A DNA stretch of 32,000 nt. Origin: Xanthomonas campestris pv. campestris str. ATCC 33913. Lineage in GTDB: Bacteria > Pseudomonadota > Gammaproteobacteria > Xanthomonadales > Xanthomonadaceae. The stretch spans positions 340,325 to 372,324 of the forward strand of contig NC_003902.1 of assembly GCF_000007145.1 (NCBI RefSeq), given 5' to 3'. The number at the start of each line of letters is the position of its first letter. Within the stretch, counting starts at the first letter, position 1. Below, piece after piece: positions 1-21,577 of this stretch. The position numbers and the translations under genes were made by a program. The notes under the pieces were generated by a model. That model was given only the letters and a program-made list of their open reading frames with translations, had not been told where the DNA came from and searched no databases.

Positions 1-2
1 CG

Positions 3-1970: not shown

Positions 1971-2277
1971 GCAAGCGCATCGACCTGGCGATGTGGCCGT
2001 GTCATCAGGCTGCATCGAGGTCATGCGTGTCGCAGCGTGGGTGCATTGCTCTCTTCTCGCACACTGCGATGCGTGCAGGGGCGGCGCACTGGCGTGCCGA
2101 GCTTCATCACCCGCAACGGCCGTTGCACGGCAGGTCGCGTTGGGGCGGCCGCGAGACGCCGTCAGCGGCGGTCAGAGGGGGCAACTGCTGCAAAGGAACC
2201 GGAACGTACGCGTCGTCCATGCCGGTTCCACGCACATGGCCGCCTGCCGGTTGAGCAGGCGTCTGCTGGTCGCGGGC

Positions 2278-2751
2278 TTACCCGGCTTCGCGCATGCGGG
2301 CGGTGAGGCCCTTGAGGAAGGCGCGTAGCAGTTGGTCGCCGCAGGGGCGGAAGTTCTTGTGGCCGGGTTGGCGGAACAGCGCCGACAGTTCCGGCTTGGA
2401 CAGCGGGAAACCGGCGTTGGCGAAAATGGAGTGCATGTCCACGTCCTTCAGTTCGAAGGCCACGCGCAGCTTCTTCAGCACCAGGTTGTTGCCGACGGGG
2501 GTTTCCAGCGGGCGCGGCGGCTGGCTTTCGTCGCGGCCGCGGAAGCGCAGCACCAGGCCATCCAGAAAGCGCGCCAGCATCGCATCGGTGCAGGGCTCGA
2601 AACCGGGCTCGTCTTCCTTCTTCAGCCAGGCCTGCACCTGCGGCTTGTCGAGCGCGAATGCGGGGTCGGCCAGCTGGGCGATCTCCACCACCTTGTCGTC
2701 GCTGAGGTCGAGCATGTAGCGGATGCTGCGCAGTACATCGTTGTGAATCAT
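2278..2751 (-). CDS. yehS: DUF1456 family protein (YehS-like)
   Basis: 157 aa. MIHNDVLRSIRYML...WLKKEDEPGF...NNLVLKKLRVAF...HKNFRPCGDQLLRAFLKGL aligns along its length with my recollection of E. coli YehS. Confidence 0.8.
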   Translation of the reverse strand: MIHNDVLRSIRYMLDLSDDKVVEIAQLADPAFALDKPQVQAWLKKEDEPGFEPCTDAMLARFLDGLVLRFRGRDESQPPRPLETPVGNNLVLKKLRVAFELKDVDMHSIFANAGFPLSKPELSALFRQPGHKNFRPCGDQLLRAFLKGLTARMREAG

Positions 2752-2836
2752 GGCGGTTCCGGAGCTCCGGCGCGGTGCCGGAAAGCGGCCATTCTACGGG
2801 CGCGCGGTGAAACCGGGCGTGTGGTCGGTGCCGCTT

Positions 2837-2864
2837 GCGCCGGTGACGCGGCCCACACCGGCGC
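2837..2864 (-). terminator. candidate stem-loop at the 3' end of the ureide operon
   Basis: GCGCCGGTG-N10-CACCGGCGC (9-bp perfect stem) begins 4 nt after the uraH stop. There is no U-tract, so intrinsic-terminator function is uncertain. Confidence 0.35.
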
Positions 2865-2867
2865 AGA

Positions 2868-3200
2868 TCAGCTGCCGCGATAGGTGGAATAGCCGTACGG
2901 CGACAGCAGCAGCGGCACGTGGTAATGGCCATGCTCGCCTAGGTTGAAGACGATCGGCACCATCTCCAGGAACGGCGGGTCGGCCAGCGCGGTGCCGCTG
3001 GCCTGCCAGTAGCCGGCCACGTCGAACTCCAGCCGGTAGCGGCCCCTTGCCAGATGCAACGTGGCCAGGGCCGGGCAGCGCCCGTCGGCATCGGTGGCCG
3101 CCTCCAGGCACAGGGTGTCGCCGGCGAACAGGCGCAGCGTGACGCCCGCAGCCGGGCGGCCGGCGGCGGTGTCGAGCACATGGGTGGAGAGCGTGCTCAT
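2868..3200 (-). CDS. uraH: 5-hydroxyisourate hydrolase (transthyretin-like)
   Basis: 110 aa from ATG 3200 (MSTLSTHVLDTAAGRPAAG...). Ends in the family signature ...HYHVPLLLSPYGYSTYRGS. Its ATG overlaps the upstream stop as ATGA, which favours 3200 over the longer ORF start at 3227. Confidence 0.9.
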   Translation of the reverse strand: MSTLSTHVLDTAAGRPAAGVTLRLFAGDTLCLEAATDADGRCPALATLHLARGRYRLEFDVAGYWQASGTALADPPFLEMVPIVFNLGEHGHYHVPLLLSPYGYSTYRGS

Positions 3201-4618
3201 GCCACCGCCTGCGTGGGCTGTGGCCATTGGCCGACGAATTCGGCCTGGTCGTAGCCCAGGTAGGCCTCGACCATGGCCTGGCGGTCGTCCAGGAACAGCT
3301 GATCGGCCACCGCCCGTGCCAGCCGCGGCAGCGCCACTTTCAGCCCCGATAACGCCGCTGCAGACAAGCCGTGGTTGATCAGCGCCGAATAGTTGAAGGC
3401 GAACAGCCCGTCCACCGCGGCGGCATCGTCGGGCGTGCGGGGCAGTAGCTCGAATCCAGGGCCCAGGTAGGGGTGCGCGTCCAGCACCGGATTGGCCTGG
3501 CCGGGCGGGGCCTGGTAGCGGTCGGCCCAGCAGGCGATGCGCCCGGACAGCGCGGCCAGCTCCGGGCGCAGCCGCGGGTCGGTGACCAGGCCGGTGGCGA
3601 TGGCCAGGAAGTCGAAACGGTGCTCGCCCTGCGGGGTGCGCACCACCACCACGTCATTGTGTTCTTCCACGCCCAGCCATGGCGCGTCCAGGTGCAGCGC
3701 AAAACCGGCATGCGCGCAGGCACGCTGGAAGGTGTCGTTGGTGGGCGGTTGGTTGCGGCCGAAGAAGCTGGCCATCATGCGGTACTTGTCGGCGTCGGGC
3801 AGGGCGGCGAAGCGTGGAATGATGCCGGCCTGTTCCATGTGGCGGATCGGGTTGACCCGCGGCAGCGCGGCGCGGCGCACGAACACCTCCGCACGCGCCA
3901 CGCCCTGGTCCAGCGCGAAGCAGGCGTTGTCGAACGCCGAGGCGCCGCCGCCCAGGATGCCCACGCGCTTGCCGGCCAATGCGGCGTAATCGATGGGGCC
4001 GGAAGTATGCGCGTAGCGCTGCGCCGGCAGGGCCTGGGTGATCCACTCAGGCACCTGCCATTGGCCGCCGCCCTGGATGCCGGTGGCCAGGATGATCTTG
4101 CGCGCCATCAGCGGCGCGCCCATCGCCAGGTGCAGGCGATGGATGCCGGGCGCGGCGTCTGGCTCGATGCGCACCAGCTGGGTGGCATTGCGCACCGGCA
4201 GCCGCAGCGCCGCGCGGTACCAGCGCAGGTAGTCCATCCAGGTGCCGCGCGGAATCTTGTCCAGCGCGTCCCAGCCGGCGGCGCCGTGCTGCGCCTCCCA
4301 CCAGGCGCGGAAGGTGAGCGTGGGCACGCCCAGGTCGATCGAAGTGATCTGCTTGGGCGTGCGCAGCGTCTGCATGCGTGCGTAGGTGACCCAGGGGCCC
4401 TCCTGCCCGGGCGGGTTTTCGTCGATCACCAACACGTTATGCACGCGCTCGCGTTGCAGGGCGAAGGCCGCGCCCAGGCCGCTCTGCCCGGCGCCGACGA
4501 TGACCACGTCGTACACATGGCCGGCCGGATGCACGCGCGGGCGCACCCAGGGTTCGCCGCCGTGGGCGAGGCGTTGCAGGTCGTGTTGCAGCGCGTGTTC
4601 GAGTTGAGCCAGGCTCAT
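3197..4618 (-). CDS. hpyO: FAD/NAD(P)-binding flavoprotein monooxygenase, probable HpyO-type urate hydroxylase
   Basis: 473 aa from ATG 4618. Two dinucleotide-binding motifs: VVIVGAGQSGLGAAF and VGILGGGASAFDNA. It lies between uraD and uraH with ATGA coupling on both sides. Xanthomonad urate clusters are known to use HpyO in place of uricase or HpxO. The 730-aa ORF in the track is an upstream run-on. Confidence 0.7.
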   Translation of the reverse strand: MSLAQLEHALQHDLQRLAHGGEPWVRPRVHPAGHVYDVVIVGAGQSGLGAAFALQRERVHNVLVIDENPPGQEGPWVTYARMQTLRTPKQITSIDLGVPTLTFRAWWEAQHGAAGWDALDKIPRGTWMDYLRWYRAALRLPVRNATQLVRIEPDAAPGIHRLHLAMGAPLMARKIILATGIQGGGQWQVPEWITQALPAQRYAHTSGPIDYAALAGKRVGILGGGASAFDNACFALDQGVARAEVFVRRAALPRVNPIRHMEQAGIIPRFAALPDADKYRMMASFFGRNQPPTNDTFQRACAHAGFALHLDAPWLGVEEHNDVVVVRTPQGEHRFDFLAIATGLVTDPRLRPELAALSGRIACWADRYQAPPGQANPVLDAHPYLGPGFELLPRTPDDAAAVDGLFAFNYSALINHGLSAAALSGLKVALPRLARAVADQLFLDDRQAMVEAYLGYDQAEFVGQWPQPTQAVA

Positions 4619-5106
4619 GGCAATGCCTCCAGGCGCAGGTGCACGATCTTGCCGATCTCGGCGAGGGCGGTGGCGATTTCGTCGTTGCGTGGTGCGTCCA
4701 GGCGACGCTGCAGTTCGGCCAGGATCCCGGCCTTGTCCTGCAAGCGCACGCAGATCACGAAGGGGAATCCAAAGCGCTGCCGGTAGGCATGGTTGAGTGC
4801 GTGAAAGCGGTGGAATTCGTCTTCGTCGAGCCGGTCCAGGCCGGCCGAGGCCTGCTCGGCGGCGGAGGCGGCGGTGAGGGTGCGGTCGATTGCGGCCTTG
4901 CCGGCCAGTTCCGGATGCGCGCGGATCAGCGCCAGCTGATCGTCGGGTGAGGCGTCGTACACCACCTGCATCAATCCGCCAAACACATCGTCGAACGGGC
5001 GGCGGCGCGCAGCGCGTTCGACCACCCACGGCGAATGCTCGAACAGCGCGCGGTAGCGCGCCACGAAGGCGGCGGTGTCCAGCGCGTTGGCATCGATCAC
5101 GCTCAT
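4615..5106 (-). CDS. uraD: 2-oxo-4-hydroxy-4-carboxy-5-ureidoimidazoline (OHCU) decarboxylase
   Basis: 163 aa. ...LFEHSPWVVERAA...LIRAHPELAGK...EQASAGLD...FHALNHAYRQRFGFPFVICVR matches the OHCU decarboxylase family. ATGA overlaps at both ends. Confidence 0.9.
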   Translation of the reverse strand: MSVIDANALDTAAFVARYRALFEHSPWVVERAARRRPFDDVFGGLMQVVYDASPDDQLALIRAHPELAGKAAIDRTLTAASAAEQASAGLDRLDEDEFHRFHALNHAYRQRFGFPFVICVRLQDKAGILAELQRRLDAPRNDEIATALAEIGKIVHLRLEALP

Positions 5107-5498
5107 GCGTGGCTGCCTTGCAGCGAGACGTGCGCAGCCACCACTTTCCAGCCATCGGTAAAGCGCACCCAGGTCTGGCTCTGGCGGCCGTGCGCGGTGC
5201 TGCCCTCGCGCACGAATTCCGCATGCGTGGTGGCAAGATCCTGGCCGAAGCCGTGCACCGCAACGTGCACGAGCTGGCGCTGCGGCGAGCCGCCACGACC
5301 GATGCGAAATGCACGGATCGCCTCGCTGCCGTACAGCACTTCGCCCACGCCATAGCGCACTGTGCTTGGCGCGGCATGGAACAGCGCATCCATCGCGGCG
5401 ATATCGTCGTGCATCAAGGCGTGCTCATACGCATGGAATGCCGCGGTGACCTCGGCGATCACCTCCGGCAGATCGATGCTGGCCGTGTCGATGCTCAT
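5103..5498 (-). CDS. hpxZ: NTF2-fold AtzH-like / oxalurate catabolism protein HpxZ-like (DUF3225)
   Basis: 131 aa from ATG 5498. YEHALMHDDIAAMDALF...STVRYGVGEVLYGSEAIRAFR...GRQSQTWVRFTDGWKVVAAHVS matches remembered AtzH-like/HpxZ motifs. ATGA-coupled on both sides. Confidence 0.75.
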   Translation of the reverse strand: MSIDTASIDLPEVIAEVTAAFHAYEHALMHDDIAAMDALFHAAPSTVRYGVGEVLYGSEAIRAFRIGRGGSPQRQLVHVAVHGFGQDLATTHAEFVREGSTAHGRQSQTWVRFTDGWKVVAAHVSLQGSHA

Positions 5499-6385
5499 GC
5501 CGGGTGCACCTGTAGCCAGTGACGCGCGATGTCGATGCGGCGTGCAACCCAGGCATCGCCACTGGCCAGCACGTGATCGACAAAACGTGCCAGCGCTGCG
5601 GCACGCGCCGGCTTGCCGACGATGCGCCCGTGCAGGCCGATGGAGAGCATGCGCCCGCCTTCGCTGCGCAGCTGTTCGAAGCTGTCGTGCAGATAGCGGA
5701 AGAACGGCTCGCCATCGGCAAAACCATTGTAGGCGACGAATTTCATGTCGTTGACATCGAGCGTGTACGGCACGATCAGCTGCGCACGGCCGTGGCGCCG
5801 GTCGTAGTACGGCACGTCGTCGGCATAGCTGTCGGCGTCGTAGACGAAGCCGCCTTCCTCGGCCACCAGACGCGCGGTATTGGGGCTGGTGCGGCCTTGA
5901 TACCAACCAAGCGGGCGGCTGCCGGTGACTTGCGTATGCAGGGCGATGGCCTCGGCCAGATGCGCGCGTTCGGTGGCTGCATCCACGTGCTGGTAGTCGA
6001 TCCAGCGCAACCCATGGCTGGCGATTTCCCAGTCGGCCGATTGCATCGCCGCCACCGCCTCGGGATTGGCGGCGAGCGCGGTGGCGACACCGAACACGGT
6101 GACCGGCACGCCGCGCGCGCTGAACAGCCGATGCAGCCGCCAGAACCCGGCGCGGCTGCCGTATTCGTACAGGCTTTCCATCGCCATGGCGCGTGCGCCC
6201 GGATGCGACGGCGCGCCGACCATTTCCGACAGGAACGCTTCCGAACCGGCATCGCCGTTGAGCACGCAGTTTTCCGCGCCCTCTTCGTAGTTGATGACGA
6301 ACTGCACCGCGATGCGCGCGCCACCTGGCCATTGCGCCGGCGGCGGCGTGGCGCCATAACCGACCAGGTCGCGCGCCGTACTCAT
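5495..6385 (-). CDS. puuE: allantoinase PuuE (polysaccharide-deacetylase family)
   Basis: 296 aa from ATG 6385 (MSTARDLVGYG...). RIAVQFVINYEEGAENCVLNGD...YEYGSRAGFWR...WEIASHGLRWIDY...LSIGLHGRIVGKPAR is typical of PuuE. Confidence 0.9.
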   Translation of the reverse strand: MSTARDLVGYGATPPPAQWPGGARIAVQFVINYEEGAENCVLNGDAGSEAFLSEMVGAPSHPGARAMAMESLYEYGSRAGFWRLHRLFSARGVPVTVFGVATALAANPEAVAAMQSADWEIASHGLRWIDYQHVDAATERAHLAEAIALHTQVTGSRPLGWYQGRTSPNTARLVAEEGGFVYDADSYADDVPYYDRRHGRAQLIVPYTLDVNDMKFVAYNGFADGEPFFRYLHDSFEQLRSEGGRMLSIGLHGRIVGKPARAAALARFVDHVLASGDAWVARRIDIARHWLQVHPA

Positions 6386-7638
6386 GCAGCCGGCTCCGCA
6401 TGCCAGGCGGCGCGTGCGGCTTCGACCGCCAGGCCTTGGGTGCACGCGTAGCCCTCGGCGCGCAGCACCGCTTCCAGTGCGGCCAGGGTGAGCAGCACCT
6501 TGTGCTTCATCGCGTTGTAGCCCATCGCACCGATGCGCCAGATCCTGCCTTGCAGCGGGCCGAACGCGGTGCCGATCTCGATTTCGAAATCCTCGCGCAT
6601 GCGCCGCCGCACTGCTTCACTGTCGACGCCGTGCGGGATCACCACGCCGGTGACATTGCTCATGCGGTGCGCATCGTCGCCGAACACCTCCAGCCCCAGT
6701 GCGCGCACGCCGGCGCTGACCGCGCGGCCGGCAGCCGCATGCCGGGCGTAGCGCGCCTCCAGGCCTTCCTGCAAGGCCACGCGTGCGCATTCGCGCGCGC
6801 CGTACAGCATGGTGGTGGCTTCGGTGTGGTGATTGAGGCGCTTGTCGGACCAGTAATCCATGATCATCGCCAGGTCGAAATAATTCGAGGCGATGCGTGG
6901 GCCGCTGCCGTTGGCGATGTCCTCGCGCACGATGCCGCGTTCGACATGCCGCCGCGCAAAGATCGCCTCCGCTGCCGCGGCAGAGACAGTGATCGGCGCC
7001 GAGCCGGACGGCCCGCCCAGGCATTTCTGCAGCCCCGCGGTGACCACGTCCACCTCCCAGCGGTCGCTGGCGATGTCCATGCCGCCGATGGTGGCTGTGG
7101 CGTCTACGTAACTCAGCGCGCCGGCCGCCCGGCATAGCGCGCCTAGGCCATCGAGCGGCTGCGCCATGGTGGTGGAGGTGTCGCCGTGCACGGTGGCCAC
7201 CAGCTTGGGTGCCACGCTTGCGATCGCCTCGGCAATCGCCGCCAGCGGCACCACCTCGCCCCACGGCGCATCCACGGTGTGGACGTCGGCGCCGAGCCGG
7301 CCAAGGATTTCGGTCAGCAACAAACCGAAGCGGCCGAAGTTGATCACCAGCACACGGTCGCCCGGCTGCACCAGCGACACCAGCGCGGCTTCGATGCCGG
7401 CGCGCGCCGTGCCATCGACCAGAAAGGTCCAGCGGTTCTGGGTGCCGAACAAGGGGCGGTACAGCGCCATCACCTCGTTCATGTAGGTGGTCATTTCCGG
7501 GTCGAACTGGCCAAGCAGGTCGGCCGCCATCGCACGCAGCACGCGTGGATGCGCATTGACCGGGCCGGGGCCCATCAACAGGCGTTGCGGCGGATCCAGT
7601 TCGCCGAAGGTGTGCAGGTGGCGCAGGTCAGGTGCCAA
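6382..7638 (-). CDS. pucG: class V aminotransferase, (S)-ureidoglycine--glyoxylate aminotransferase-like (PucG/HpxJ family)
   Basis: LLMGPGPVNAHPRVLRAM N-terminal motif and the AGXT-family body (VDATATIGG..., QKCLGGPSG). The start taken is TTG 7638, which overlaps the allC stop by 11 nt. The first in-frame ATG (7575) would remove residues conserved upstream of LLMGPGP. Confidence 0.8.
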   Translation of the reverse strand: MAPDLRHLHTFGELDPPQRLLMGPGPVNAHPRVLRAMAADLLGQFDPEMTTYMNEVMALYRPLFGTQNRWTFLVDGTARAGIEAALVSLVQPGDRVLVINFGRFGLLLTEILGRLGADVHTVDAPWGEVVPLAAIAEAIASVAPKLVATVHGDTSTTMAQPLDGLGALCRAAGALSYVDATATIGGMDIASDRWEVDVVTAGLQKCLGGPSGSAPITVSAAAAEAIFARRHVERGIVREDIANGSGPRIASNYFDLAMIMDYWSDKRLNHHTEATTMLYGARECARVALQEGLEARYARHAAAGRAVSAGVRALGLEVFGDDAHRMSNVTGVVIPHGVDSEAVRRRMREDFEIEIGTAFGPLQGRIWRIGAMGYNAMKHKVLLTLAALEAVLRAEGYACTQGLAVEAARAAWHAEPAA

Positions 7639-8899
7639 TGGGAGCTCCGAAGTGTTCGATGAAATGGCGCATCACCGCCAGGGCGACCTCGGCATCGGCC
7701 GGGTCGACGTGTTCGTCCGGATGATGGCTGATGCCGCCGGCGCAGCGCACGAACAGCATCGCGGTGGGGCAGAGCGCCGCCATCACCATGGCGTCGTGCC
7801 CGGCGCCGGAGACCAGCGGCCGTGGTGTGATGCCTTGCGCGGCGACCGCTTGCGTCAGGCGGGCGATCAATGCCGGCGCGCAGGGGCTGGCCGCCAGCGC
7901 CTGCAGCGGCTCGACGGCGATGGCAACCCCGCGCGCGGCAACCACCTGCTCCAGGGCGCGTTCGATCTGCGCCACTGCAGCGTCGCGGCGGTGGTCATCG
8001 CCGGCGCGCACGTCCAGCGTGCAGTCCACGCGGCCGGGCACCACGTTGATGGCGCCGGGGGCGACCTCCAGCTTGCCAACGGTGGCAACCAGATCGTCGC
8101 CGCCACTGCGCGCAATCTGCTCGATCATCAGCAGCGCTTCGGCGGCCGCGCTCAAGGCATCGCGGCGCAGCGCCATGGTGGTGGTGCCGGCGTGGCCGGC
8201 GCGGCCGTCGAAGCGCAGCCGAAAGCGCCGTTGCGCGGCGATGCCGGTGACGATGCCAACCGGCAGCTGCGCGACTTCCAGCACCGGGCCTTGTTCGATA
8301 TGCGTTTCCAGATACGCCAGCACGCTGCCCGGCACGCGCGCGGCTTCATGTAGACGTGCGGCGTCCAGGCCCCACGCGGCCAGCGCGGTGGCCACGTCGA
8401 CGCCGTCTGGATCGCGCACGGCCAGGGCGGCCGCATCCAGCGTGCCGGCCACCGCGCGGCTACAGAACATCGATGCCGGAAAGCGCGAGCCTTCTTCATC
8501 GCCGAACCCAACGACTTCGATCGCAAACGGCAGCCGGCGCCCTTGTGCGTGCAGCGCGGCCACGCATTCGATGCCGAGCAGCACGCCCAGCGGGCCGTCA
8601 TAGCGCCCGGCCGCGCGCACGCTGTCCAGGTGGCTGCCGATCAACAGCGCCGGTGCGTGCGCATGCGCGCCTTCGTAGCGCCCGACCAGATTGGCGGCCG
8701 CATCCAGGCGCACCTGCATGCCGGCCTGGCGCATCCACGCGCCCACCTGCTCGGTGGTGGCGCGATGCGCCGGGCTGAGCCAGCTGCGGAACAGACCGGT
8801 GGGGGTGTCGCTGAAGGGCGCCACGCCCAGCGCATCACAGCGCGCCACGGCCCGTGCGCCGGAGGCAACGGGGGCGTTGCTGGCTACCGCACTCAGCAT
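7628..8899 (-). CDS. allC: allantoate amidohydrolase (M20 Zn-hydrolase, AllC family)
   Basis: 423 aa from ATG 8899. GSHLDSV, GFGDEEGSRF, GHAGTTTM and SGAGHDAM motifs of the M20 amidase/carbamoylase family. The 522-aa ORF in the track is a 5' run-on into the promoter region. Confidence 0.85.
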   Translation of the reverse strand: MLSAVASNAPVASGARAVARCDALGVAPFSDTPTGLFRSWLSPAHRATTEQVGAWMRQAGMQVRLDAAANLVGRYEGAHAHAPALLIGSHLDSVRAAGRYDGPLGVLLGIECVAALHAQGRRLPFAIEVVGFGDEEGSRFPASMFCSRAVAGTLDAAALAVRDPDGVDVATALAAWGLDAARLHEAARVPGSVLAYLETHIEQGPVLEVAQLPVGIVTGIAAQRRFRLRFDGRAGHAGTTTMALRRDALSAAAEALLMIEQIARSGGDDLVATVGKLEVAPGAINVVPGRVDCTLDVRAGDDHRRDAAVAQIERALEQVVAARGVAIAVEPLQALAASPCAPALIARLTQAVAAQGITPRPLVSGAGHDAMVMAALCPTAMLFVRCAGGISHHPDEHVDPADAEVALAVMRHFIEHFGAPIGT

Positions 8900-9035
8900 G
8901 CGGTGATCCGGCAGTGGTGGGACAGGGCAAACGCAGCGGTGGGCTGGGGCATGTCTGCGTGCTCGATGTCGTGGCCCGTGTTGCGGGGCGGGAGGGGCGT
9001 CTCGACTATACGAACGTCGTCGTGTCGCCCCAAAG

Positions 9036-9077
9036 CGGTTTTTTTCGAGGTTGCCGTTGCAAAAAATGCGACGGGCC
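9036..9077. promoter_or_regulatory. conserved regulatory module with T-N11-A dyad TTGCAAAAAATGCGA in the allC / lysR divergent region
   Basis: CGGTTTTTTTCGAGGTTGCCGTTGCAAAAAATGCGACGGGCC. The dyad is at 9057-9071. A near-identical module occurs at 25446-25484 in the other divergent LysR promoter region. Confidence 0.45.
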
Positions 9078-9211
9078 TGGAGCGAGCACCTGCACAGAGG
9101 AGCGCGGGGCATGCAGTAGCCGAATCCCGTGCTGCGCGCATCGCCGACCGGACGTGCCAGGCCCATTGCCGGACTGTTACAGTCGGTGCGGGGCATGAAT
9201 CGGATTCACCA

Positions 9212-10105
9212 ATGGCGCGCGATAATTTCAAGGACCTGCTGGCGCTGATCGCCATCGTGCGGGAAGGCAGCTTCACCCGGGCCGCGGCAAAGCTGGGGGT
9301 GTCGCAGTCGGCGCTCAGCCACACCATCCGCGGGCTGGAAGCGACGCTCGGCCTGCGCCTGCTCACCCGCACCACCCGCAGCGTGGCGCCGACCGAGGCC
9401 GGCGAGCGCCTGATCCAGACGGTGGCGCCGCGCTTTGCCGAGATCGAAGAGGCGCTGTCGGCGCTGAGCGAGATGCGCGACACCCCGGCTGGCAGCGTGC
9501 GCATCACCGCCACCGACTATGCCGCGCGCGAAATCCTGTGGCCCAAGCTGGCGGTGCTGCTGCGCCAGTACCCGGACATCAAGGTGGAACTGGTGGTGGA
9601 CAACGGCCTGACCGACATCGTGGCCGACCGTTACGATCTCGGCGTGCGCCTGGGCGACCAGGTGGAAAAAGACATGATCGCCGCGCGCATCGCGCCGGAC
9701 ATGCGCATGGCATTGATCGCCTCGCCCGCCTACCTGGAACGCCGGCCGCTGCCCAAGACCCCGCAAGACCTCACCGCGCACCTGTGCATCAACCTGCGCA
9801 TGACCACCGCCGGCGGCATCTACGCCTGGGAACTGGAAAAGGACGGCCGCGAGATCGCAGTGCGTGTGGAGGGCCAGCTCACCTTCAACAGCATCTATGA
9901 AGCATTGGATGCGGCGCTGCAGGGGTTCGGCATCGCCTTCGTGCAGGAAGACCTCGCCCGGCCGCACATCAAGGCCGGGCGGCTGCGTTGGGTGATGAAG
10001 GACTGGTCACCCACCTGGCCCGGCCTGCATGCGTTCTACCCCAGCCGCCGGCATTCCTCGCCCGCGTTCAACCTGGTGCTGGAGGCGCTGCGGCATAAGG
10101 GCTGA
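9212..10105 (+). CDS. LysR-family transcriptional regulator
   Basis: 297 aa from ATG 9212. The N-terminal wHTH FTRAAAKLGVSQSALSHTIRGLEATLGLRLLTRTTRSVAPTEAG is followed by a LysR substrate-binding domain. Divergent from allC. Confidence 0.9.
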   Translation: MARDNFKDLLALIAIVREGSFTRAAAKLGVSQSALSHTIRGLEATLGLRLLTRTTRSVAPTEAGERLIQTVAPRFAEIEEALSALSEMRDTPAGSVRITATDYAAREILWPKLAVLLRQYPDIKVELVVDNGLTDIVADRYDLGVRLGDQVEKDMIAARIAPDMRMALIASPAYLERRPLPKTPQDLTAHLCINLRMTTAGGIYAWELEKDGREIAVRVEGQLTFNSIYEALDAALQGFGIAFVQEDLARPHIKAGRLRWVMKDWSPTWPGLHAFYPSRRHSSPAFNLVLEALRHKG

Positions 10106-10126
10106 GGGTTGCGCTGGTGTTGGGAC

Positions 10127-10399
10127 GCGGTCGAAATCCTGAGCGTGTATCTGGCCAGGGAGCTGGAACCGCGCAGTATCACGGCCAACACGGTGGCGCG
10201 CGGTGCCATTGCCACTGGCTTTCCCGGAGGTGCGGTGCGCGATACGCCGGCCTACACCAAGGCCTTTGCCGACATGACCGCGTTGGGCCGGGTGGGCGTG
10301 CCGGACGACATCGGCCCGATGGTCGCCAGCCTGTTGAGCGAGGACAACCGCTGGGTCACCGGGCAGCGGATCGAGGTGTCTGGCGGCCAGACGATCTGA
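10127..10399 (+). pseudogene. 3' remnant of an SDR-family oxidoreductase gene
   Basis: Only the C-terminal ~90 aa are present: AVEILSVYLARELEPRSITANTVARGAIATGF...GRVGVPDDIGPMVASLLSEDNRWVTGQRIEVSGGQTI. The Rossmann N-terminus and the catalytic YxxxK are missing. The fragment starts within ~20 nt of the LysR stop. Confidence 0.75.
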
Positions 10400-10582
10400 G
10401 CTGGCTGAGGCGGTGGAATCAGCATGTGTTTGTTCGACTGTTTCGTTGGTGCTCGCCAGTCGTTTCGATGGGAAGCGCCGCGCACGAGCGCGATAGTGCG
10501 TGAAGCCCGCGCACTGCGCGGGTCTGCAACCCCGGAAATTGTAGTCGGCGTATCCGAATGCAATCGCAATCGCTGACGTCAT

Positions 10583-11591
10583 CGCACACCACGTAGAGCG
10601 CGCTTGCGCGCGATGAAGCTGTCCCGGTAACGCCCCATCGCGCGTAAGCGCGCTCCTACGACCGCCGACGCGTGTGGGAGTGTCGTGACATCAGACCAGC
10701 CACAACAGATTCGCCTGTTTGGCAGAGGTGTGTCGTATGCGTGATTGTGACCGCCATCCGTGACGGCGGCGCACACCACGTAGGAGCGCGCTCGCGCGCG
10801 ATGAAGCTGTCCCGGTAACGCCCGATCGCGCGCAAGCGCGCTCCTAAGACCGCCGATGCGTGCGGAAGTGTCGTGACATCAGACCAGCCACAACAGATTC
10901 GCCTGTTTGGCAGAGGTGTCGTATGCGTGATTGTGACCGCCATCCGTGACGGCGGCACACAGCACGTAGGAGCGCGTTTGCGCGCGACGAAGCTGTTCCG
11001 GTAACACCCCATCGCGCGCAAGCGCGCGCCTACGACCGCCGATGCGTGCGGAAGTGTCGTGACATCAGACCAGCCACAACAGATTCGCCTGTTTGGCAGA
11101 GGCGTTGCACGCGTGACTGTGACTGCCATCCGTGACGGCGGCGCACATCATGTAAGAGCGCGCTTGCGCGCGATGAAGCTGTCGCGGTGACGTCCCATCG
11201 CGCGCAAGCGCGCTCCTACGGCCGCCGATGCGTGCGGGAGTGCCGTGAGATCAGACCAGACACAGAGGATTCGCCTGTTTGGCAGAGGTGTCGTATGCGT
11301 GACTGTAGCCGCCATCCGTGATGGCGGCAGACACCACGTAGGAGCGCGCTTGCGCGCGATGAAGCTGTCTCGGTGACGCCCCATCGCGCGCAAGCGCGCT
11401 CCTACGACCGCCGATACGTGCGTGAGTATCGTGACATCAGCCCAAGCACGGCAGATTCGCCTGTTTGATGGACGTGTTTCATGCGTGACTGTGACCGCCA
11501 TCCGTGATGGCGGCGCGCATCAGGTAGGAGCGCGCTCGCGCGCGATGAAGCTGTCCCGGTAACGCCCCATCGCGCGCAAGCGCGCGCCTAC
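10583..11591. repeat. tandem array of composite REP units: 6 GTAG-type hairpins, 5 conserved linkers, period 186 bp
   Basis: GTAG heads at 10593, 10780, 10966, 11152, 11338 and 11524. Each REP is GTAGGAGCGCGCTTGCGCGCG(ATG)-loop-(CAT)CGCGCGCAAGCGCGCTCCTAC. Linkers of ~118 nt are conserved and carry CCGCC-N9-GGCGG at 10751, 10937, 11123, 11309 and 11495. Confidence 0.9.
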
Positions 11592-11975
11592 CGAGGCCAT
11601 GTGCGTGGCCAGCCGGTGCCGCGTTCAGCACCGGGCGCATGACCTCCGCCCAAGCCTGAGTAGACAGGTTGCGCAGACGGCCAGGCAGCGGAAACGCACC
11701 CGATCCAATGAACAGCGCTCATAAGCCCATGCGCTTTGGCCAGCTTTATCGCACTGGCCATCCTGCGTACGCTGCGCAGCCTGGCGTTGCCCTTGTTGAG
11801 GCTTGCAACGCTGCGTGCGTTGCGGCGTGGGCGCTATGCGCCAACCGTGACTTCTTCAGAACAATGCCTCACAGCGCAGCGTGTGCGCATGCCACAGCTC
11901 GGTGCTCCCACGCCGTCGATGTGCGGTGCTAAAGCGCAGTGGCGCTCTCCCGTTCCAGTCTTCAAAGGATCCTGC

Positions 11976-13172
11976 ATGTCTTCCGCATCCACTGCTTCCG
12001 CCGCCGTGCGCGCTGCGCCCAGCGCCAGCCGCCAGACCTGGAGTGCGGTGGGCTCGTTGTCGTTGTGCGTAGCGTTGTTGATCGCCTCCGAGTTCATGCC
12101 GGTCAGCCTGCTCACGCCGATCGCGGCCGATCTGCATGCCACCGCCGGCATGGCCGGGCAGGCGATCTCCATCTCGGGGTTGTTTGCGGTGCTGGCCAGC
12201 CTGCTCATCGCGCCACTTACGTCGCGCTTCAATCGCCGGCATGTGCTGATCAGCCTGAGCGCGGTGATGTTGCTGTCATTGTTGCTGATCGCCAATGCGC
12301 ATTCGTTCGGCATGTTGATGGCGGCGCGTGCGCTGCTGGGGATCACCATTGGTGGGTTCTGGGCGCTGGCCACCGCCACGGTGATGCGCATGATGCCGGA
12401 AGAGGCGGTACCCAAGGCGCTGGGCATCGTCTACATCGGCAACGCGGTGGCGACCGCATTTGCCGCTCCGTTGGGTAGCTATCTGGGCGCGGTGATCGGC
12501 TGGCGTGGCGTGTTCTGGGGCATGGTGCCGTTGGTGGCGCTGACCATCGCCTGGCAGTGGCACAGCCTGCCATCCTTGCCTGCGCAGGGCGGCACCTCGC
12601 TGGGCAGCATCGCCGCATTGCTCAAGCGTCGCTACGTGGCGCGCGCGATGCTGGCGATCATGTTGGGCTTTGCCGGTGCGTTCTCTGCGTTTACCTATTT
12701 CCGTCCGTTCCTGGAGAACGCCGCGCACGTGGATGTATCGCACTTGTCGTTGCTGCTGCTCGGGCTGGGCCTGGCCGGTTTTGCCGGCACCTATGCCGCC
12801 ACGGCCCTGCTGCCGAAGCGCTTGTTCAGTCTGCTCACGGTGCTGCCGGTGGCGTTGGGCGTGGCCACCCTGGCGATGCTGCTGACCAGCCATCTGCTGT
12901 GGGGCGTGGCAATCGCGATGATTGCGTGGGGCACACTCAATTCGGCATTGCCGGTGGCGTGGTCCACCTGGCTGAGCCGCTGCATCAAGGACGCACCGGA
13001 AGCCGGTGGCGGCCTGATGGTGGCCGCCATCCAGCTGGCCATCATGCTCGGTGGTGCACTGGGCGGCGTGCTGCTGGATCACGTCTCCATCGCCGCCACC
13101 TTCATCGGTGCCAGCGTGCTGCTGCTGGCTGCATCGCTGGTGGCCGGTAATGGCGCGCGGTTGCAGCCTTGA
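11976..13172 (+). CDS. MFS transporter, DHA1 family, NepI-like (purine ribonucleoside efflux pump family)
   Basis: 398 aa from ATG 11976, with AAGGA 8 nt upstream. WSAVGSLSLCVALLIASEFMPVSLLTPIAADL...LLGITIGGFWA...VPKALGIVYIG...APLGSYLGAVIGWRGVF closely parallels my recollection of E. coli NepI. 12 TM-like segments. Confidence 0.75.
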   Translation: MSSASTASAAVRAAPSASRQTWSAVGSLSLCVALLIASEFMPVSLLTPIAADLHATAGMAGQAISISGLFAVLASLLIAPLTSRFNRRHVLISLSAVMLLSLLLIANAHSFGMLMAARALLGITIGGFWALATATVMRMMPEEAVPKALGIVYIGNAVATAFAAPLGSYLGAVIGWRGVFWGMVPLVALTIAWQWHSLPSLPAQGGTSLGSIAALLKRRYVARAMLAIMLGFAGAFSAFTYFRPFLENAAHVDVSHLSLLLLGLGLAGFAGTYAATALLPKRLFSLLTVLPVALGVATLAMLLTSHLLWGVAIAMIAWGTLNSALPVAWSTWLSRCIKDAPEAGGGLMVAAIQLAIMLGGALGGVLLDHVSIAATFIGASVLLLAASLVAGNGARLQP

Positions 13173-13599: not shown

Positions 13600-14361
13600 T
13601 TGTCAGCCCCTCATGACAGTCACACGTTGATCAATGTCCTGACCCTCAATGCCCACATGGGCTTTGACCTGCTCAAGCGGCGCTTCATTCTTGCCGCGTT
13701 GCGTGAGGCCATTCGCGAGGTCTGCGCCGAGATCGTGTGCCTGCAGGAAGTCCTGGGCGAACACGCGCTGCACGCCCGGCGACACGCGCAGTGGCCTGCC
13801 GTGGCGCATTACGAATATCTCGCGGAAATGCTGTGGCCGCAGTTCTCCTATGGGCGCAATGCGGTGTATCCGCACGGGCACCATGGCAATGCGGTGTTGT
13901 CGAAGTTTCCTATCTCAAGTTTCGCCAATCACGATGTGTCCGTGCCCGGCCACGAGCCACGGGGGGTACTGCACGCGGTGCTGCAGGTGCCGGGCTGGTC
14001 GGAGGAGCTACAGGTGTTCTGCGTGCACCTCGGCTTGCACGAAGCGCACCGGCAGCAGCAGATCGGCCTGCTGTGCGCGCGGGTGGCTGCGCTCTCGGCC
14101 GATGCGCCGGTCGTGGTGGCGGGCGACTTCAACGACTGGCGGGCGCGCGGCCATCCGCTGCTCACGCGCTGTGGTCTGGTCGAGGCCGTCGAATGCATGC
14201 ACGGGCGCGTGGCGCGCAGCTTTCCCTCGCGCTTTCCGGTCTTGCCGCTGGACCGCATCTATCTGCGCAATCTGCGGGTGGTGCAGGCGCGCGTCCTGTC
14301 CGGTCTGCCGTGGTCGCGGCTCTCCGATCATCTGCCGTTATTGGCGAGTATCGCGCCATGA
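13600..14361 (+). CDS. ybhP: endonuclease/exonuclease/phosphatase family protein (YbhP-like)
   Basis: VLTLNAHMGF..RRFILAALREAIREVCAEIVCLQEV...YGRNAVYPHGHHGNAVLSKFPI...VFCVHLGLHEAHRQQQ...VVAGDFNDWR...LPLDRIY...LSDHLPL aligns with E. coli YbhP. The start is uncertain: no in-frame ATG, TTG at 13600 or 13627. Confidence 0.85.
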   Translation: MSAPHDSHTLINVLTLNAHMGFDLLKRRFILAALREAIREVCAEIVCLQEVLGEHALHARRHAQWPAVAHYEYLAEMLWPQFSYGRNAVYPHGHHGNAVLSKFPISSFANHDVSVPGHEPRGVLHAVLQVPGWSEELQVFCVHLGLHEAHRQQQIGLLCARVAALSADAPVVVAGDFNDWRARGHPLLTRCGLVEAVECMHGRVARSFPSRFPVLPLDRIYLRNLRVVQARVLSGLPWSRLSDHLPLLASIAP

Positions 14362-18504: not shown

Positions 18505-18680
18505 GAGCCCCTCTCCCGCCGGGAGAGGGGTTGGGGTGAGGGTGCCCCGCTAGTTGGAGATGTATCAGGTATGCGTTTACCTTGCTTGCCACCTACTCAA
18601 CTGGCGCGGCGTCTTTATCGGGTGACGTACCCTCATCCGCCCTTCGGGCAACTTCTCCCGATGGGAGAAGGGAGAGCGGC
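18505..18680. repeat. MITE-like inverted-repeat element (hairpin CCCCTCTCCC-GCC-GGGAGAGGGG plus GGGGTGAGGGT box at one end, ACCCTCA ... CTTCTCCC-GAT-GGGAGAAG at the other)
   Basis: The left arm (18508-18543) and the reverse complement of the right arm (18629-18670) align as imperfect terminal inverted repeats around an ~85-nt core. The same motifs recur at 26419-26690. Confidence 0.5.
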
Positions 18681-19756
18681 AGTCCGACTGCTGGTGATTG
18701 CGGTGCAGTGAGGTGATCGACCAATAGCTGCTCAAACGCCTGCACATTCACAGCATGCACCACCGTCTGTGCCTGTTCGCCCAGTCCAGGCTGATAGCCC
18801 GGCGCCCACGACAAAATGTCGCCATAGCCTGCGTCGAACGCGGTGTTGGTGTCGATGTAGAGCGTTTCGGTGTGCGTCGCCAACTCGGGGCGCAGCCACA
18901 CCGCAGTGGCCAGCTCGTCCCACATCGGAAAGCCGGTTTCGCGGCGACGCAATGCGTGGCCGATGGGGGTGTCGGCCGCGCTCATGCGCGCCAATAGCTC
19001 CGGGGTGAGTTCGGTGGCGGTGGAGGGATCCACCGGCACCATGGTGATCTTCCGCCACGGTGCGCGCATGACGATGCTGGCGGCTTCCGGGTCCCAGCGG
19101 ATGTTGAATTCGCGGCGTGGCGAATTGACGAACTCGCGCGCGAATTGGCGCGCGCTCACGCTGTCGCGCTGCTGGCGTGGATTGAGGCTGCCGCCCATGT
19201 AGACCAGTTCGCGCGCCAGCGTGGCGAAGGCCGGGTCCAGGGCCTGCGCGAGGGCCAGGTTGGTCAATGGGCCAGTGGCAATGATGCTCACCTCGCCGGG
19301 GTACTGGCGCACCATGCGCAGCATGAACAGCGCCGCCGGTTCGTCGGATGCGCGCACCACGCTGGGGTTGCCCAGTGGCAGATCGGGCACCACGTCGTGC
19401 GCGTGATAACGCGGCGCACTCTGCACGGTGTCGCCATCCACCCAGTGTTTGGTCCATGCACCTTTCCACACCAGCTTGCCGTACAGCGCTTCCCACCGTT
19501 CGGTGGCCAGCTCGCTGTTGAGCAGCGGGTGCACCGGGCCGGGATGCACCAGAATCTGCGGCTGCCCGGCCAGTTCCAGCAGGCGGCAGCTGTGTGCGAT
19601 CACCTCATCGCGCCAGATGTTGCCGCTGACCGCGCTGATGCCGAGCACCTCGACCTCCGGCGACTGCAGCAACAGCAACTGCGCGGGCGTGAAGCCGTCG
19701 ATGTCGTCTTCGAGGATGACGCGGCGTTTGGATGGGGCGGCGTGCGAGTGGGTCAT
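18593..19756 (-). CDS. nucleoside hydrolase (IU-NH fold)
   Basis: 387 aa from ATG 19754-19756. Motifs: ISAVSGN, IIATGPLTNLALA, YMGG, W(M)WDELA-type C-terminal region. The N-terminal Asp cluster is atypical (VILEDDIDG). The last ~29 codons are read from the repeat element. Confidence 0.75.
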   Translation of the reverse strand: MTHSHAAPSKRRVILEDDIDGFTPAQLLLLQSPEVEVLGISAVSGNIWRDEVIAHSCRLLELAGQPQILVHPGPVHPLLNSELATERWEALYGKLVWKGAWTKHWVDGDTVQSAPRYHAHDVVPDLPLGNPSVVRASDEPAALFMLRMVRQYPGEVSIIATGPLTNLALAQALDPAFATLARELVYMGGSLNPRQQRDSVSARQFAREFVNSPRREFNIRWDPEAASIVMRAPWRKITMVPVDPSTATELTPELLARMSAADTPIGHALRRRETGFPMWDELATAVWLRPELATHTETLYIDTNTAFDAGYGDILSWAPGYQPGLGEQAQTVVHAVNVQAFEQLLVDHLTAPQSPAVGLPLSLLPSGEVARRADEGTSPDKDAAPVE

Positions 19757-19814
19757 TGCGCTGTCGTCATGGAGGGGAAATGTATTGCAGCGGCGATGCA
19801 GCGGAAGTCGCGTT

Positions 19815-19882
19815 GTAGGAGCGCGCTTGCGCGCGATGAGGCGTTATCGGTGAAGCCTCTTCGCGCGCAAGCGCGCTCCTAT
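19815..19882. repeat. solitary GTAG-type REP hairpin
   Basis: GTAGGAGCGCGCTTGCGCGCG - loop (with inner GAGGC/GCCTC stem) - CGCGCGCAAGCGCGCTCCTAT. Lies between the adenosine deaminase stop and the nucleoside hydrolase start. Confidence 0.85.
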
Positions 19883-19885
19883 GGG

Positions 19886-21454: not shown

Positions 21455-21577
21455 ACAGAAAAAACTCGCAAGAAGGTGTGCCGGCGCGCATGCGCGCCCA
21501 GCGGAGGGGTAGCTTGCCTTGCAGTGTGTTGCACGGCCAGCGCGCTGCGTGCCTGCAGGCAGCGCGGTGCAGGCGCG

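What the first reader, a model, noticed from the sequence alone, without database searches (positions are those of the whole stretch)
10583..11591. Six GTAG-type REP hairpins held in an exact 186-bp (62-codon) tandem array with conserved linkers
REP/GTAG palindromes are normally scattered singly or as inverted pairs (REPINs). Here six lie in direct orientation. The period is 187 bp for the first unit and exactly 186 bp for the next four, despite many point differences between units. Each unit is a 68-nt hairpin (21-24-nt arms) plus a ~118-nt linker. The linker is itself conserved and has its own CCGCC-N9-GGCGG stem. One minus-strand frame is open across 10656-11501 apart from a single TGA at 11148, because the period is a multiple of three. 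The array fills the gap between a decayed SDR gene and the promoter side of the NepI-like pump. Possible roles are a transcriptional insulator/terminator stack, an mRNA-stabilising structure, a recombination hotspot or VNTR, or a RAYT substrate.
Basis: seen in the sequence. Interest (0 to 1): 0.65.

Follow-up and report, generated by a model that had tools for sequence, protein, structure and literature searches.

The report
Tandem REPIN (BIME-like) array, Xanthomonas campestris
This is a non-coding tandem array of a known selfish palindromic repeat (REP pairs, or REPINs) copied together with 118 bases of neighbouring DNA; this arrangement is already described as typical of Xanthomonas campestris, so the finding is real but ordinary.

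Summary
Positions 10583-11591 hold 5.4 head-to-tail copies of a 186-bp unit: six 68-nt hairpins and five 118-120-nt linkers.

The interpretation needs correcting. Each hairpin is itself a REPIN, two inverted copies of the published, RAYT-associated X. campestris REP (GTAGGAGCGCGCTTGCGCGCGATG). Tandem arrays of REP pairs plus flanking DNA (BIMEs, REPIN clusters) are documented as the predominant REP arrangement in this species.

- **Lineage-specific:** other Xanthomonas species have the same LysR and MFS genes adjacent, with no array.
- **Variable copy number:** relatives carry 4, 5 or 6 REPINs, with periods of 179-187 bp.
- **Not coding:** the open minus-strand frame is expected by chance, and variable sites show no third-position excess.
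- **Linker unconstrained:** it varies more than the REP arms, has no coding-like composition, and has no structure beyond one small hairpin.
- **Not a one-off:** another array in the window and one elsewhere in the species have unrelated linkers. One of these is visibly a duplicated gene start.

Best explanation: whole modules are gained and lost by recombination, slippage or RAYT action between neighbouring REPINs. Any host function is unproven. Low interest; already known.

The parts
10583..11591 (.). Whole tandem array: 5.4 copies of a 186-bp module (10 nt + REPIN + 108 nt). It begins 10 nt before the first REPIN and ends exactly at the end of the sixth.
   Evidence: TRF; unit listing; flanks show no significant similarity to the linker.
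10593..10659 (.). REPIN 1: two inverted REPs. The left arm lacks one G, which contributes to the 187-bp first period.
10780..10847 (.). REPIN 2
10966..11033 (.). REPIN 3
11152..11219 (.). REPIN 4
11338..11405 (.). REPIN 5: perfect 25-nt arms. The left arm 11338-11361 equals the published 'Xcam' REP GTAGGAGCGCGCTTGCGCGCGATG. DNA hairpin energy is -39.4 kcal/mol, z = -10.
11524..11591 (.). REPIN 6, the last element of the array
10660..10779 (.). Linker 1 (120 nt)
10848..10965 (.). Linker 2 (118 nt)
11034..11151 (.). Linker 3 (118 nt)
11220..11337 (.). Linker 4 (118 nt). It contains the small hairpin GCCGCCATC-CGT-GATGGCGGC at 11308-11328.
11406..11523 (.). Linker 5 (118 nt), identical to the last linker of strain B100
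10109..10399 (+). Remnant of an SDR gene (C-terminal 96 codons only). It starts 3 nt after the LysR stop and is absent from other Xanthomonas species.
9212..10105 (+). LysR-family regulator, the upstream neighbour, on the same strand as the MFS gene
11592..11975 (.). Non-repeated spacer between the array and the MFS gene. Positions 11719-11778 are homologous to the LysR-MFS intergenic region of other Xanthomonas species, so this is the ancestral intergenic DNA.
11976..13172 (+). MFS transporter, NepI-like (below the equivalog cut-off)
19815..19882 (.). Solitary REPIN of the same family, showing that the REPIN is the dispersed unit
28357..28821 (.). Second tandem REPIN array of the same REP family: 4 REPINs with an unrelated, shorter linker and periods of 126, 136 and 137 bp

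Best explanation
The locus is a BIME-like tandem cluster of REPINs in Xanthomonas campestris pv. campestris.

**Anatomy (shown).** The basic module has four parts: a REP in forward orientation, a 20-24-nt spacer, a REP in reverse orientation, and a 118-nt inter-REPIN segment of ordinary intergenic DNA. The array is non-coding.

**How it arose and changes (inferred).**
1. REPINs landed in the LysR-MFS intergenic region after X. campestris split from other Xanthomonas species.
2. The near-identical 68-nt REPINs, lying as direct repeats 118 nt apart, then served as substrates for unequal homologous recombination or replication slippage. RAYT-catalysed cleavage and ligation at REPs, as proposed by Nunvar et al., is an alternative route.
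3. Each such event adds or removes a whole 186-bp module.

This would account for the exact periodicity, an array that ends in a REPIN, whole-module copy-number differences between lineages, and mosaic relationships among units.

**Why the arms stay similar (inferred).** The REP arms stay more uniform than the linkers because they are constrained by hairpin formation and RAYT recognition, or homogenised by gene conversion. The linker drifts.

**Effect on the host (inferred).** Any effect is most likely a passive by-product: a stack of very stable hairpins between two co-directional genes that could impede read-through or protect upstream mRNA 3' ends. It is not a selected device.
For: **Identity**
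- The arm equals the published RAYT-associated Xcam REP.
- Each hairpin is an inverted REP pair.
- Gene names on the homologous ORFs assign the sequence to X. campestris pv. campestris, and locus L006 is identical to the window.

**Published precedent**
[quoted passage not shown] - Tandem REPIN clusters that include flanking sequence occur in P. fluorescens (PMC3116915).

**Lineage-specific**
- In 14 of the 16 other Xanthomonas loci fetched, LysR and the full MFS gene are about 320-540 nt apart. None of the 16 has a REP, the linker or the SDR remnant.

**Module gain and loss**
- The window has 6 REPINs, B100 has 5, a pv. raphani strain has 4, and a B100-like metagenome contig has 6.
- Periods are 179, 182, 185, 186 and 187 bp.
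- Linker relationships are mosaic. The window's linker 5 is identical to B100's linker 4, while the other linkers differ at 9-26 of 118 sites.

**No coding constraint**
- Variable columns fall 16/12/16 over codon positions.
- Codon differences are 32 synonymous and 84 non-synonymous.
- 1.18 of 6 frames are expected to be open at this GC content.
- GC by phase in the linker is 0.51-0.72, against GC3 of 0.84-0.89 in real genes.
- There is no Pfam hit.

**No linker constraint**
- 32 of 118 linker columns vary, against 5 of 44 in the REP arms.
- Linker fold z-scores range from -1.45 to +0.54.
- The covariation term is -0.25 kcal/mol.

**Generality**
- A second array in the window (28357-28821) and an array at another X. 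campestris locus have unrelated linkers.
- The other-locus array has period 210 and 2.8 versus 3.8 copies in two strains. Its linker is a duplicated 5' end of the neighbouring DUF885 gene.
Against: - The amplification step (RecA-dependent crossover, slippage or RAYT) is not resolved by any data here.
- The 10 nt before each REPIN (CGCACACCAC) are also present before the first REPIN. A simple two-REPIN crossover model does not predict this.
- In nine strains that share an identical LysR protein the array is invariant, with 0-1 differences in 1009 nt. The array is therefore not hypervariable on short time scales. That sample is biased, because it was selected for identical LysR.
- I could not confirm that the 118-nt linker is unique genome-wide. 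The species' own genomes did not appear in the scanned genome collection.
- No expression data were available, so a host function is not excluded.
Confidence: 0.85

Rival explanations
1. The anatomy is the same, but modules are added by the REP-associated tyrosine transposase (RAYT). The enzyme cleaves at same-strand REPs and ligates in trans, as in the Nunvar et al. model of BIME proliferation. Homologous recombination or slippage would then not be the driver.
For: - The arm is the RAYT-associated Xcam REP.
- The array ends exactly at the GTAG end of a REP.
- Nunvar et al. argue that interstrain BIME differences are unlikely to come from recombination or slippage alone. They also show rayt 3' ends captured into BIMEs.
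- At another X. campestris locus a gene's 5' end has been captured into the inter-REPIN segment.
Against: - No RAYT gene was seen in the parts of the window I scanned.
- No biochemical or genetic evidence exists for RAYT-driven duplication. The model is a published hypothesis.
- 68-nt direct repeats 118 nt apart are sufficient substrates for RecA-dependent or slippage events.
- The gradient of similarity between adjacent units (94.7%, then 91.4%) is what local duplication gives under either mechanism.
Confidence: 0.25
2. The array is kept by selection as a functional element, analogous to E. coli BIME-2. It could be a gyrase, IHF or polymerase binding region, or a transcriptional barrier or mRNA 3'-end stabiliser. 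It would insulate the NepI-like pump gene from read-through out of the LysR gene and the SDR remnant.
For: - The array sits between two co-directional genes.
- The REPIN hairpins are extremely stable, -26 to -39 kcal/mol as DNA, z = -5 to -10.
- The array is retained, with 4-6 modules, in every X. campestris locus examined.
- REP and BIME functions of this sort are established in E. coli, as summarised in PMC2817692.
Against: - Other Xanthomonas species run the same gene pair without any array.
- Module number and period vary.
- There is no U-tract terminator or promoter motif, no Rfam family and no covariation.
- The linker is no more structured than shuffled sequence.
- Arrays of the same family with unrelated linkers occur at unrelated loci. 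This points to a repeat-driven origin, not a locus-driven one.
Confidence: 0.12
3. The minus strand encodes a repeat protein with a 62-residue unit. The ORFs are 10656-11129 and 11148-11501, and they are annotated as hypothetical proteins in several genomes, for example XCCB100_0312.
For: - One minus frame has only 3 stops across the array.
- Gene callers annotate ORFs of 126-157 aa here in some genomes.
Against: - An in-frame TGA lies at 11148.
- Periods of 179, 182, 185 and 187 bp break the frame in other units and strains.
- Variable sites fall 16/12/16 by codon position, and non-synonymous differences outnumber synonymous ones 84 to 32.
- There is no GC3 signal and no Pfam domain.
- Among 5.8 billion proteins, the only homologues are ORFs called across REPIN arrays in Xanthomonas (nearly all X. 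campestris). Similarity to arrays at other loci is confined to the REPIN-encoded block.
- About 1.2 open frames are expected by chance.
Confidence: 0.02
4. The units encode a family of structured small RNAs, or a cis-regulatory leader of the MFS gene.
For: - Whole units fold better than shuffles: z = -2.9 on the plus strand and -6.9 on the minus strand.
- The linker has a conserved 8-9-bp hairpin.
Against: - The fold signal comes from the REPIN palindrome. Linkers alone give z between -1.45 and +0.54.
- The covariation term is -0.25 kcal/mol, and the hairpin stems are invariant or show only one-sided changes.
- There is no Rfam match and no promoter-like site.
- The hairpin motif is not a dispersed element. 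In metagenomes it occurs only in these arrays or singly in unrelated, apparently coding contexts.
Confidence: 0.03

Closest known systems
BIMEs of Xanthomonas and Stenotrophomonas (Nunvar et al. 2010, PMC2817692), including the 'Xcam' REP class with RAYT NP_636415
   Same: - The REP sequence is the same.
- REPs are regularly spaced and alternate in orientation.
- The basic module is two inverted REPs plus two inter-REP segments, joined head-to-tail.
- Inter-REP segments are unrelated between clusters.
- Cluster length differs between strains.
- The species is the same.
   Different: Nothing substantive differs. This particular locus, with its 186-bp module between the LysR and NepI-like MFS genes, is not singled out in the main text. 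The supplementary coordinate list could not be checked, because only about 1,200 characters of it are held.
Tandemly repeated REPIN clusters of Pseudomonas fluorescens SBW25 (Bertels & Rainey 2011, PMC3116915)
   Same: Both are tandem repeats of REPINs that include the flanking sequences. The REPIN is the dispersed unit, and arrays occur at several loci.
   Different: The REP family and genus differ. The largest SBW25 cluster has four REPINs and spans about 700 bp. This one has six REPINs and spans 1,009 bp, with units already 5-15% diverged from one another.
GTAG-1 REP clusters (Di Nocera et al. 2013, PMC3733652)
   Same: The repeats are GTAG-tagged palindromes. The X. campestris family is 'largely made by clustered elements', with dimers reiterated in tandem together with flanking DNA of variable length.
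   Different: None in kind.
E. coli BIME-2
   Same: Both are tandem reiterations of an inverted REP pair with defined linkers.
   Different: The E. coli linkers are short, conserved motifs shared genome-wide, and gyrase binding has been shown. Here the long linker is locus-specific DNA, and no protein binding is known.

Membership tests
REP, Xcam class (GTAG-type; Nunvar 2010, Charnavets 2015) | Sequence pattern GTRG-GA-stem(6)-loop(2)-stem(6)-GAN, matching the published X. campestris REP | tested here: met
   The consensus arm GTAGGAGCGCGCTTGCGCGCGA(TG) at 11338-11361 is identical to the published 24-mer 'Xcam'. It differs by one base from the Table 1 form GTAGGAGCGCGCTCGCGCGCGA, which is itself present at 10780 and 11524.
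REP, Xcam class | Many copies, in extragenic positions | tested here: met
   The 32-kb window holds 21 copies against 0.01 expected, all between genes. The genome-wide count of 48/177/223 copies (exact match/1 mismatch/2 mismatches) comes only from the literature.
REP, Xcam class | A cognate RAYT gene flanked by the same REPs in the same genome | not tested
   No Y1-transposase domain appears among the genes of the window that I scanned or among the precomputed Pfam lists for the neighbouring genes. The whole genome could not be searched. The literature gives NP_636415 in ATCC 33913.
REPIN (Bertels & Rainey 2011) | Two REPs in inverted orientation, separated by a short spacer and forming one long hairpin | tested here: met
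   All six elements have 20-25-nt arms, 20-24-nt spacers and 91-100% complementarity. DNA hairpin energies are -29 to -39 kcal/mol, z = -5 to -10.
REPIN | The doublet is the dispersed (replicative) unit | tested here: inconclusive
   A solitary REPIN lies at 19815-19882, and REPINs occur at two further loci with unrelated flanks. Mobility itself cannot be tested with these tools.
BIME / tandem REPIN cluster | A head-to-tail repeated module of two inverted REPs and two inter-REP segments, regularly spaced | tested here: met
   Period 186, 5.4 copies, 0% indels. REPs alternate in orientation at fixed spacing.
BIME / tandem REPIN cluster | Inter-REP segments are locus-specific, so clusters arose independently from local DNA | tested here: met
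   - The linker is absent elsewhere in the window and in all other loci fetched.
- The array at 28357-28821 and the array in L093/L094 have unrelated linkers. The L093/L094 linker is a duplicated gene 5' end.
- A genome-wide check in X. campestris was not possible.
BIME / tandem REPIN cluster | Length differs between strains | tested here: met
   Orthologous loci carry 6, 5, 4 and 6 REPINs. The other array has 2.8 versus 3.8 copies in two strains.
BIME (E. coli sense) | Binding of IHF, DNA gyrase or Pol I; Rho-dependent termination | not testable with these tools
   This needs ChIP or in vitro binding. No canonical IHF site was evident on inspection.
Protein-coding tandem-repeat gene | Frame kept across units and strains, a third-position excess of substitutions, and coding GC3 | tested here: not met
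Intrinsic terminator | A GC-rich hairpin followed by a U-tract | tested here: not met
   0 terminator-like sites on either strand in 9900-12200.
CRISPR array | Short repeats separated by unique spacers | tested here: not met
   The 'spacers' (linkers) are homologous to one another at 78-96% identity. The repeats are 68-nt REPINs of a dispersed family.

The most novel reading that the evidence does not exclude
The array could be more than junk. One reading is a selected, X. campestris-specific BIME-2 analogue: a stack of cruciform-prone REPINs that binds gyrase or other nucleoid proteins and insulates the NepI-like efflux gene from upstream transcription. A second reading is a live substrate on which the single RAYT adds and removes 186-bp modules. 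That would make it a tractable natural reporter for RAYT activity, which has never been shown in vivo.
Probability: 0.1. Interest if true: 0.4.

Novelty: already known. Interest (0 to 1): 0.12.

Why it matters
It matters little beyond annotation.

- **Annotation.** The array and its relatives are repeatedly mis-annotated as hypothetical proteins, for example XCCB100_0312 and the 141-aa family at the DUF885 locus. They also break short-read assemblies, as shown by the 100-N gap in L003.
- **Experimental use.** The locus could serve as a strain-typing marker, since it varies by whole modules. It could also serve as a PCR-sized substrate for testing whether recA or rayt drives BIME expansion. That is the one open question it touches.

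Tried and rejected
- **Genome-wide linker scan.** I scanned 185,579 species-representative genomes with the pattern TTCGMCTGTTTG-N24-36-CCGTGAYGGCGG and found 0 hits. This says little. The collection returned no X. campestris or close-clade genome for the LysR query either; the best hit was 92%. The absence therefore covers only other species.
- **Rfam.** No match at the gathering threshold.
- **Pfam on the two minus-strand ORFs.** No hit.
- **Linker derived from adjacent flanks.** Local alignment of the linker to 10400-10591 and 11592-11800 gave scores within the shuffle range. Only the 10 nt CGCACACCAC before REPIN 1 is shared.
- **Linker as a decayed coding fragment.** There is no GC3 periodicity, and the protein search found only array ORFs.
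- **Linker hairpin as a second REP class.** GTRR-CCGCCATC-CGT-GATGGCGG resembles the GTRG-stem-loop-stem pattern. The metagenome scan found it only in two further X. campestris-type arrays and as 12 single, unrelated occurrences, at least one visibly in a coding context (VAAIRDGG). Rejected for lack of evidence.
- **Conserved RNA structure in the linker.** Rejected.
- **Promoter and terminator scan.** Nothing found.
- **CRISPR or integron attC readings.** Rejected, because the inter-repeat segments are homologous copies and not unique cassettes or spacers.
- **Invariance across nine strains as evidence of constraint.** The array is identical in nine strains. I discounted this because the strains were selected for an identical LysR protein.

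Full report
**1.

Tandem Repeats Finder reports an array at 10583-11591 with period 186, 5.4 copies, 88% matches, no indels and score 1552. Units start at 10583, 10770, 10956, 11142, 11328 and 11514, so the first period is 187 and the next four are 186.

Six inverted repeats have 20-25-nt arms that are 91-100% complementary, separated by 20-24 nt. The linkers are 120, 118, 118, 118 and 118 nt long.

In units 4 and 5 it extends to a 9-bp stem with a 3-nt loop, z = -6.2. The minus-strand frame is open from 11501 to 10656 except for a TGA at 11148-11150.

The flanks are as described. A LysR regulator (9212-10105, +) is followed 3 nt later by the last 96 codons of an SDR gene (10109-10399). Downstream lies an MFS transporter (11976-13172, +) whose best NCBIfam match is NepI, below the cut-off.

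**2. What the hairpins are.**

The 22-nt arm GTAGGAGCGCGCTTGCGCGCGA occurs 21 times in the window at up to 3 mismatches, against 0.01 expected by chance. The copies always come in inverted pairs:
- six pairs in the array;
- one solitary pair at 19815-19882;
- four pairs in a second tandem array at 28357-28821, with periods of 126-137 bp and a different linker.

Each 68-nt hairpin is therefore a REPIN (a REP doublet), not a single REP. The arm is identical to the published X. campestris REP oligonucleotide 'Xcam', GTAGGAGCGCGCTTGCGCGCGATG (PMC4690160). It also matches the REP that flanks RAYT NP_636415 in X. campestris ATCC 33913 (PMC2817692).

The organism is X. campestris pv. campestris. A look-up of the LysR protein returned ~5-Mb genomes, one of which (L006, CP029483) is identical to the window over the ~12 kb compared. 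ORFs called across the array carry X. campestris names, for example XCCB100_0312.

**3. Comparative picture.**

Sixteen other Xanthomonas loci were fetched, including X. hortorum, X. arboricola, X. dyei, X. pisi and X. codiaei. In 14 of them the LysR and full MFS genes lie adjacent, about 320-540 nt apart. None has a REP of this family, the linker or the SDR remnant. Window positions 11719-11778, to the right of the array, are homologous to their intergenic region. The SDR remnant plus the array is therefore a lineage-specific addition.

Within X. campestris the array varies by whole modules:

| Source | REPINs | Periods (bp) |
|---|---|---|
| Window and eight near-identical strains | 6 | 187, 186, 186, 186, 186 |
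| Strain B100 | 5 | 186, 186, 185, 186 |
| A pv. raphani strain | 4 | 186, 182, 186 |
| B100-like metagenome contig | 6 | 186, 186, 185, 179, 186 |

A draft genome (L003) has a 100-N gap inside the array.

Linker relationships are mosaic. The window's fifth linker is identical to B100's fourth, while the other linkers differ at 9-26 of 118 sites. Two adjacent raphani linkers are each other's closest relatives. The flanks of the window and B100 are about 97.5% identical, whereas the best alignment through the array is about 89%. This is the signature of unequal exchange or conversion among units.

**4. Not coding.**

- Among units 2-5, the 44 variable columns fall 16/12/16 over the codon positions of the open minus frame.
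- Codon differences are 32 synonymous against 84 non-synonymous.
- At 64% GC a 62-codon unit stays open in a given frame with probability 0.20, so 1.18 of the six frames are expected to be open. An open unit copied five times gives a long 'ORF' for free.
- GC by phase in the linker is 0.51-0.72, against GC3 of 0.84-0.89 in LysR, MFS and the SDR remnant.
- There is no Pfam domain.
- A search of 5.8 billion proteins found only ORFs called across REPIN arrays in Xanthomonas, nearly all X. campestris. For arrays at other loci the similarity is confined to the REPIN-encoded block.
- Periods of 179, 182, 185 and 187 bp break the frame.

**5. The linker is not constrained.**

REP arms vary at 5 of 44 columns, REPIN spacers at 7 of 24, and the linker at 32 of 118. 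Linkers alone fold no better than shuffles, with z from -0.69 to +0.54 on the plus strand and -1.45 to +0.10 on the minus strand.

Whole units do fold better than shuffles, but only because of the REPIN. RNAalifold on 13 units from four genomes gives a covariation term of -0.25 kcal/mol, with the stems essentially invariant.

There is no Rfam match and no sigma-70-like or intrinsic-terminator-like site.

In some units the small linker hairpin has a GTAG or GTGG head, so I asked whether it is a second REP class. A metagenome scan found it only in two more X. campestris-type arrays and as 12 single occurrences in unrelated contexts, at least one visibly coding. There is no support for that idea.

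**6. The same process at other loci.**

At another X. campestris locus, between an M24 peptidase gene and a DUF885 gene, the same REPIN is reiterated with a 210-bp period. One strain has 2.8 copies and another has 3.8. There the linker is plainly a duplicated copy of the DUF885 gene's start codon and signal-peptide region. These arrays too are annotated as hypothetical proteins of 125-211 aa. Different loci thus have different linkers around the same REPIN, which means the linker is simply whatever DNA lay next to the REPIN.

**7. Mechanism.**

*Shown:*
- the anatomy;
- the identity with the known REP;
- the lineage-specific origin;
- gain and loss of whole modules;
- the absence of coding and structural constraint in the linker.

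*Inferred:*
- Direct repeats of 68 nt lying 118 nt apart drive unequal homologous recombination or replication slippage.
- Nunvar et al. alternatively propose RAYT cleavage and ligation at REPs.
- The data here cannot separate these routes.

One detail remains unexplained. The 10 nt preceding every REPIN (CGCACACCAC) also precede the first one.

*Not tested:* a host-level effect, such as a barrier to read-through from LysR or mRNA 3'-end protection. It is plausible from E. coli precedent, but the array-free state of other species and the variable module number argue against it being essential.

**8. Comparison with the known.**

- Nunvar et al. [quoted passage not shown] They describe modules of two inverted REPs and two inter-REP segments joined head-to-tail, with inter-REP segments unrelated between clusters.
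- Di Nocera et al. 2013 say the X. campestris GTAG-1 family is 'largely made by clustered elements'. [quoted passage not shown]
- Bertels & Rainey 2011 describe tandem repeats of REPINs 'including the flanking sequences'.

Every defining feature that could be tested here is met. The RAYT itself and protein binding could not be tested.

**9. Verdict.**

This is a real, well-described feature, and an ordinary example of a kind already documented in this very species. Interest is low. The residual value is as an annotation warning and as a convenient substrate for testing how BIMEs expand.

Noticed in passing
window 28357-28821: A second tandem REPIN array of the same REP family. It has four REPINs, periods of 126, 136 and 137 bp, and left arms carrying the variant GTAGGAGCGCACTYGTGCGCGA. 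Its linker is unrelated to that of the first array. It lies between two minus-strand ORFs with no Pfam hit.
   Followed up: partly
window 19815-19882: A solitary REPIN in the 130-nt gap between the nucleoside hydrolase gene (18593-19756, -) and the adenosine deaminase gene (19886-21454, -). Together with the two arrays, this puts 21 REP copies in 32 kb. The literature reports roughly 220 copies per genome, so this region is strongly enriched.
   Followed up: partly
window 10261-10566, compared with L091, L092, L003 and L100: B100, pv. raphani, L003 and a metagenome contig lack this 306-bp stretch: the distal part of the SDR remnant plus the spacer. In them the array abuts the truncated SDR remnant directly. 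The window's lineage keeps the longer, presumably older state.
   Followed up: partly
L093 2893-3475 and L094 2892-3682 (X. campestris, between the M24 peptidase and DUF885 genes): A REPIN array with a 210-bp period whose linker duplicates the start and signal-peptide region of the downstream DUF885 gene. It has 2.8 versus 3.8 copies in two strains. It is widely annotated as hypothetical proteins of 125-211 aa (P0005-P0021).
   Followed up: partly
L007 12767-14117 (window equivalent 11968-11977): In one strain a ~1.35-kb IS with a DDE_Tnp_1 transposase is inserted immediately before the MFS start codon. The 10 bp at window 11968-11977 are present on both sides of the insertion. The IS did not target a REP.
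   Followed up: partly
window 13600-14361 and L001, L002, L005, L009: The endonuclease/exonuclease/phosphatase-family gene downstream of the MFS pump is intact here (253 aa). In several sister strains it is split into 116 + 115 aa, truncated to 177 aa, or not called at all. This suggests ongoing pseudogenisation.
   Followed up: no
L003 11228-11327: A run of 100 N lies inside the orthologous array of a draft genome. The repeat breaks short-read assembly, so copy numbers taken from draft genomes are unreliable.
   Followed up: yes
window ~1-9200 and 18593-22915 (gene lists of L001-L010): The array sits inside a purine and ureide catabolism neighbourhood. The genes include a transthyretin-like HIU hydrolase, OHCU decarboxylase, a PuuE-like deacetylase, an aminotransferase, an M20 amidohydrolase, a nucleoside hydrolase, adenosine deaminase and a xanthine/uracil permease. 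A NepI-like purine-nucleoside efflux pump fits this context.
   Followed up: no
P0004 (541-nt contig, X. campestris pv. campestris): A 90-aa partial ORF joins a GGDEF-like peptide (GEEFVLLLPD...) to the translation of array unit 4. This is probably a chimeric short-read contig joined through a REPIN.
   Followed up: no
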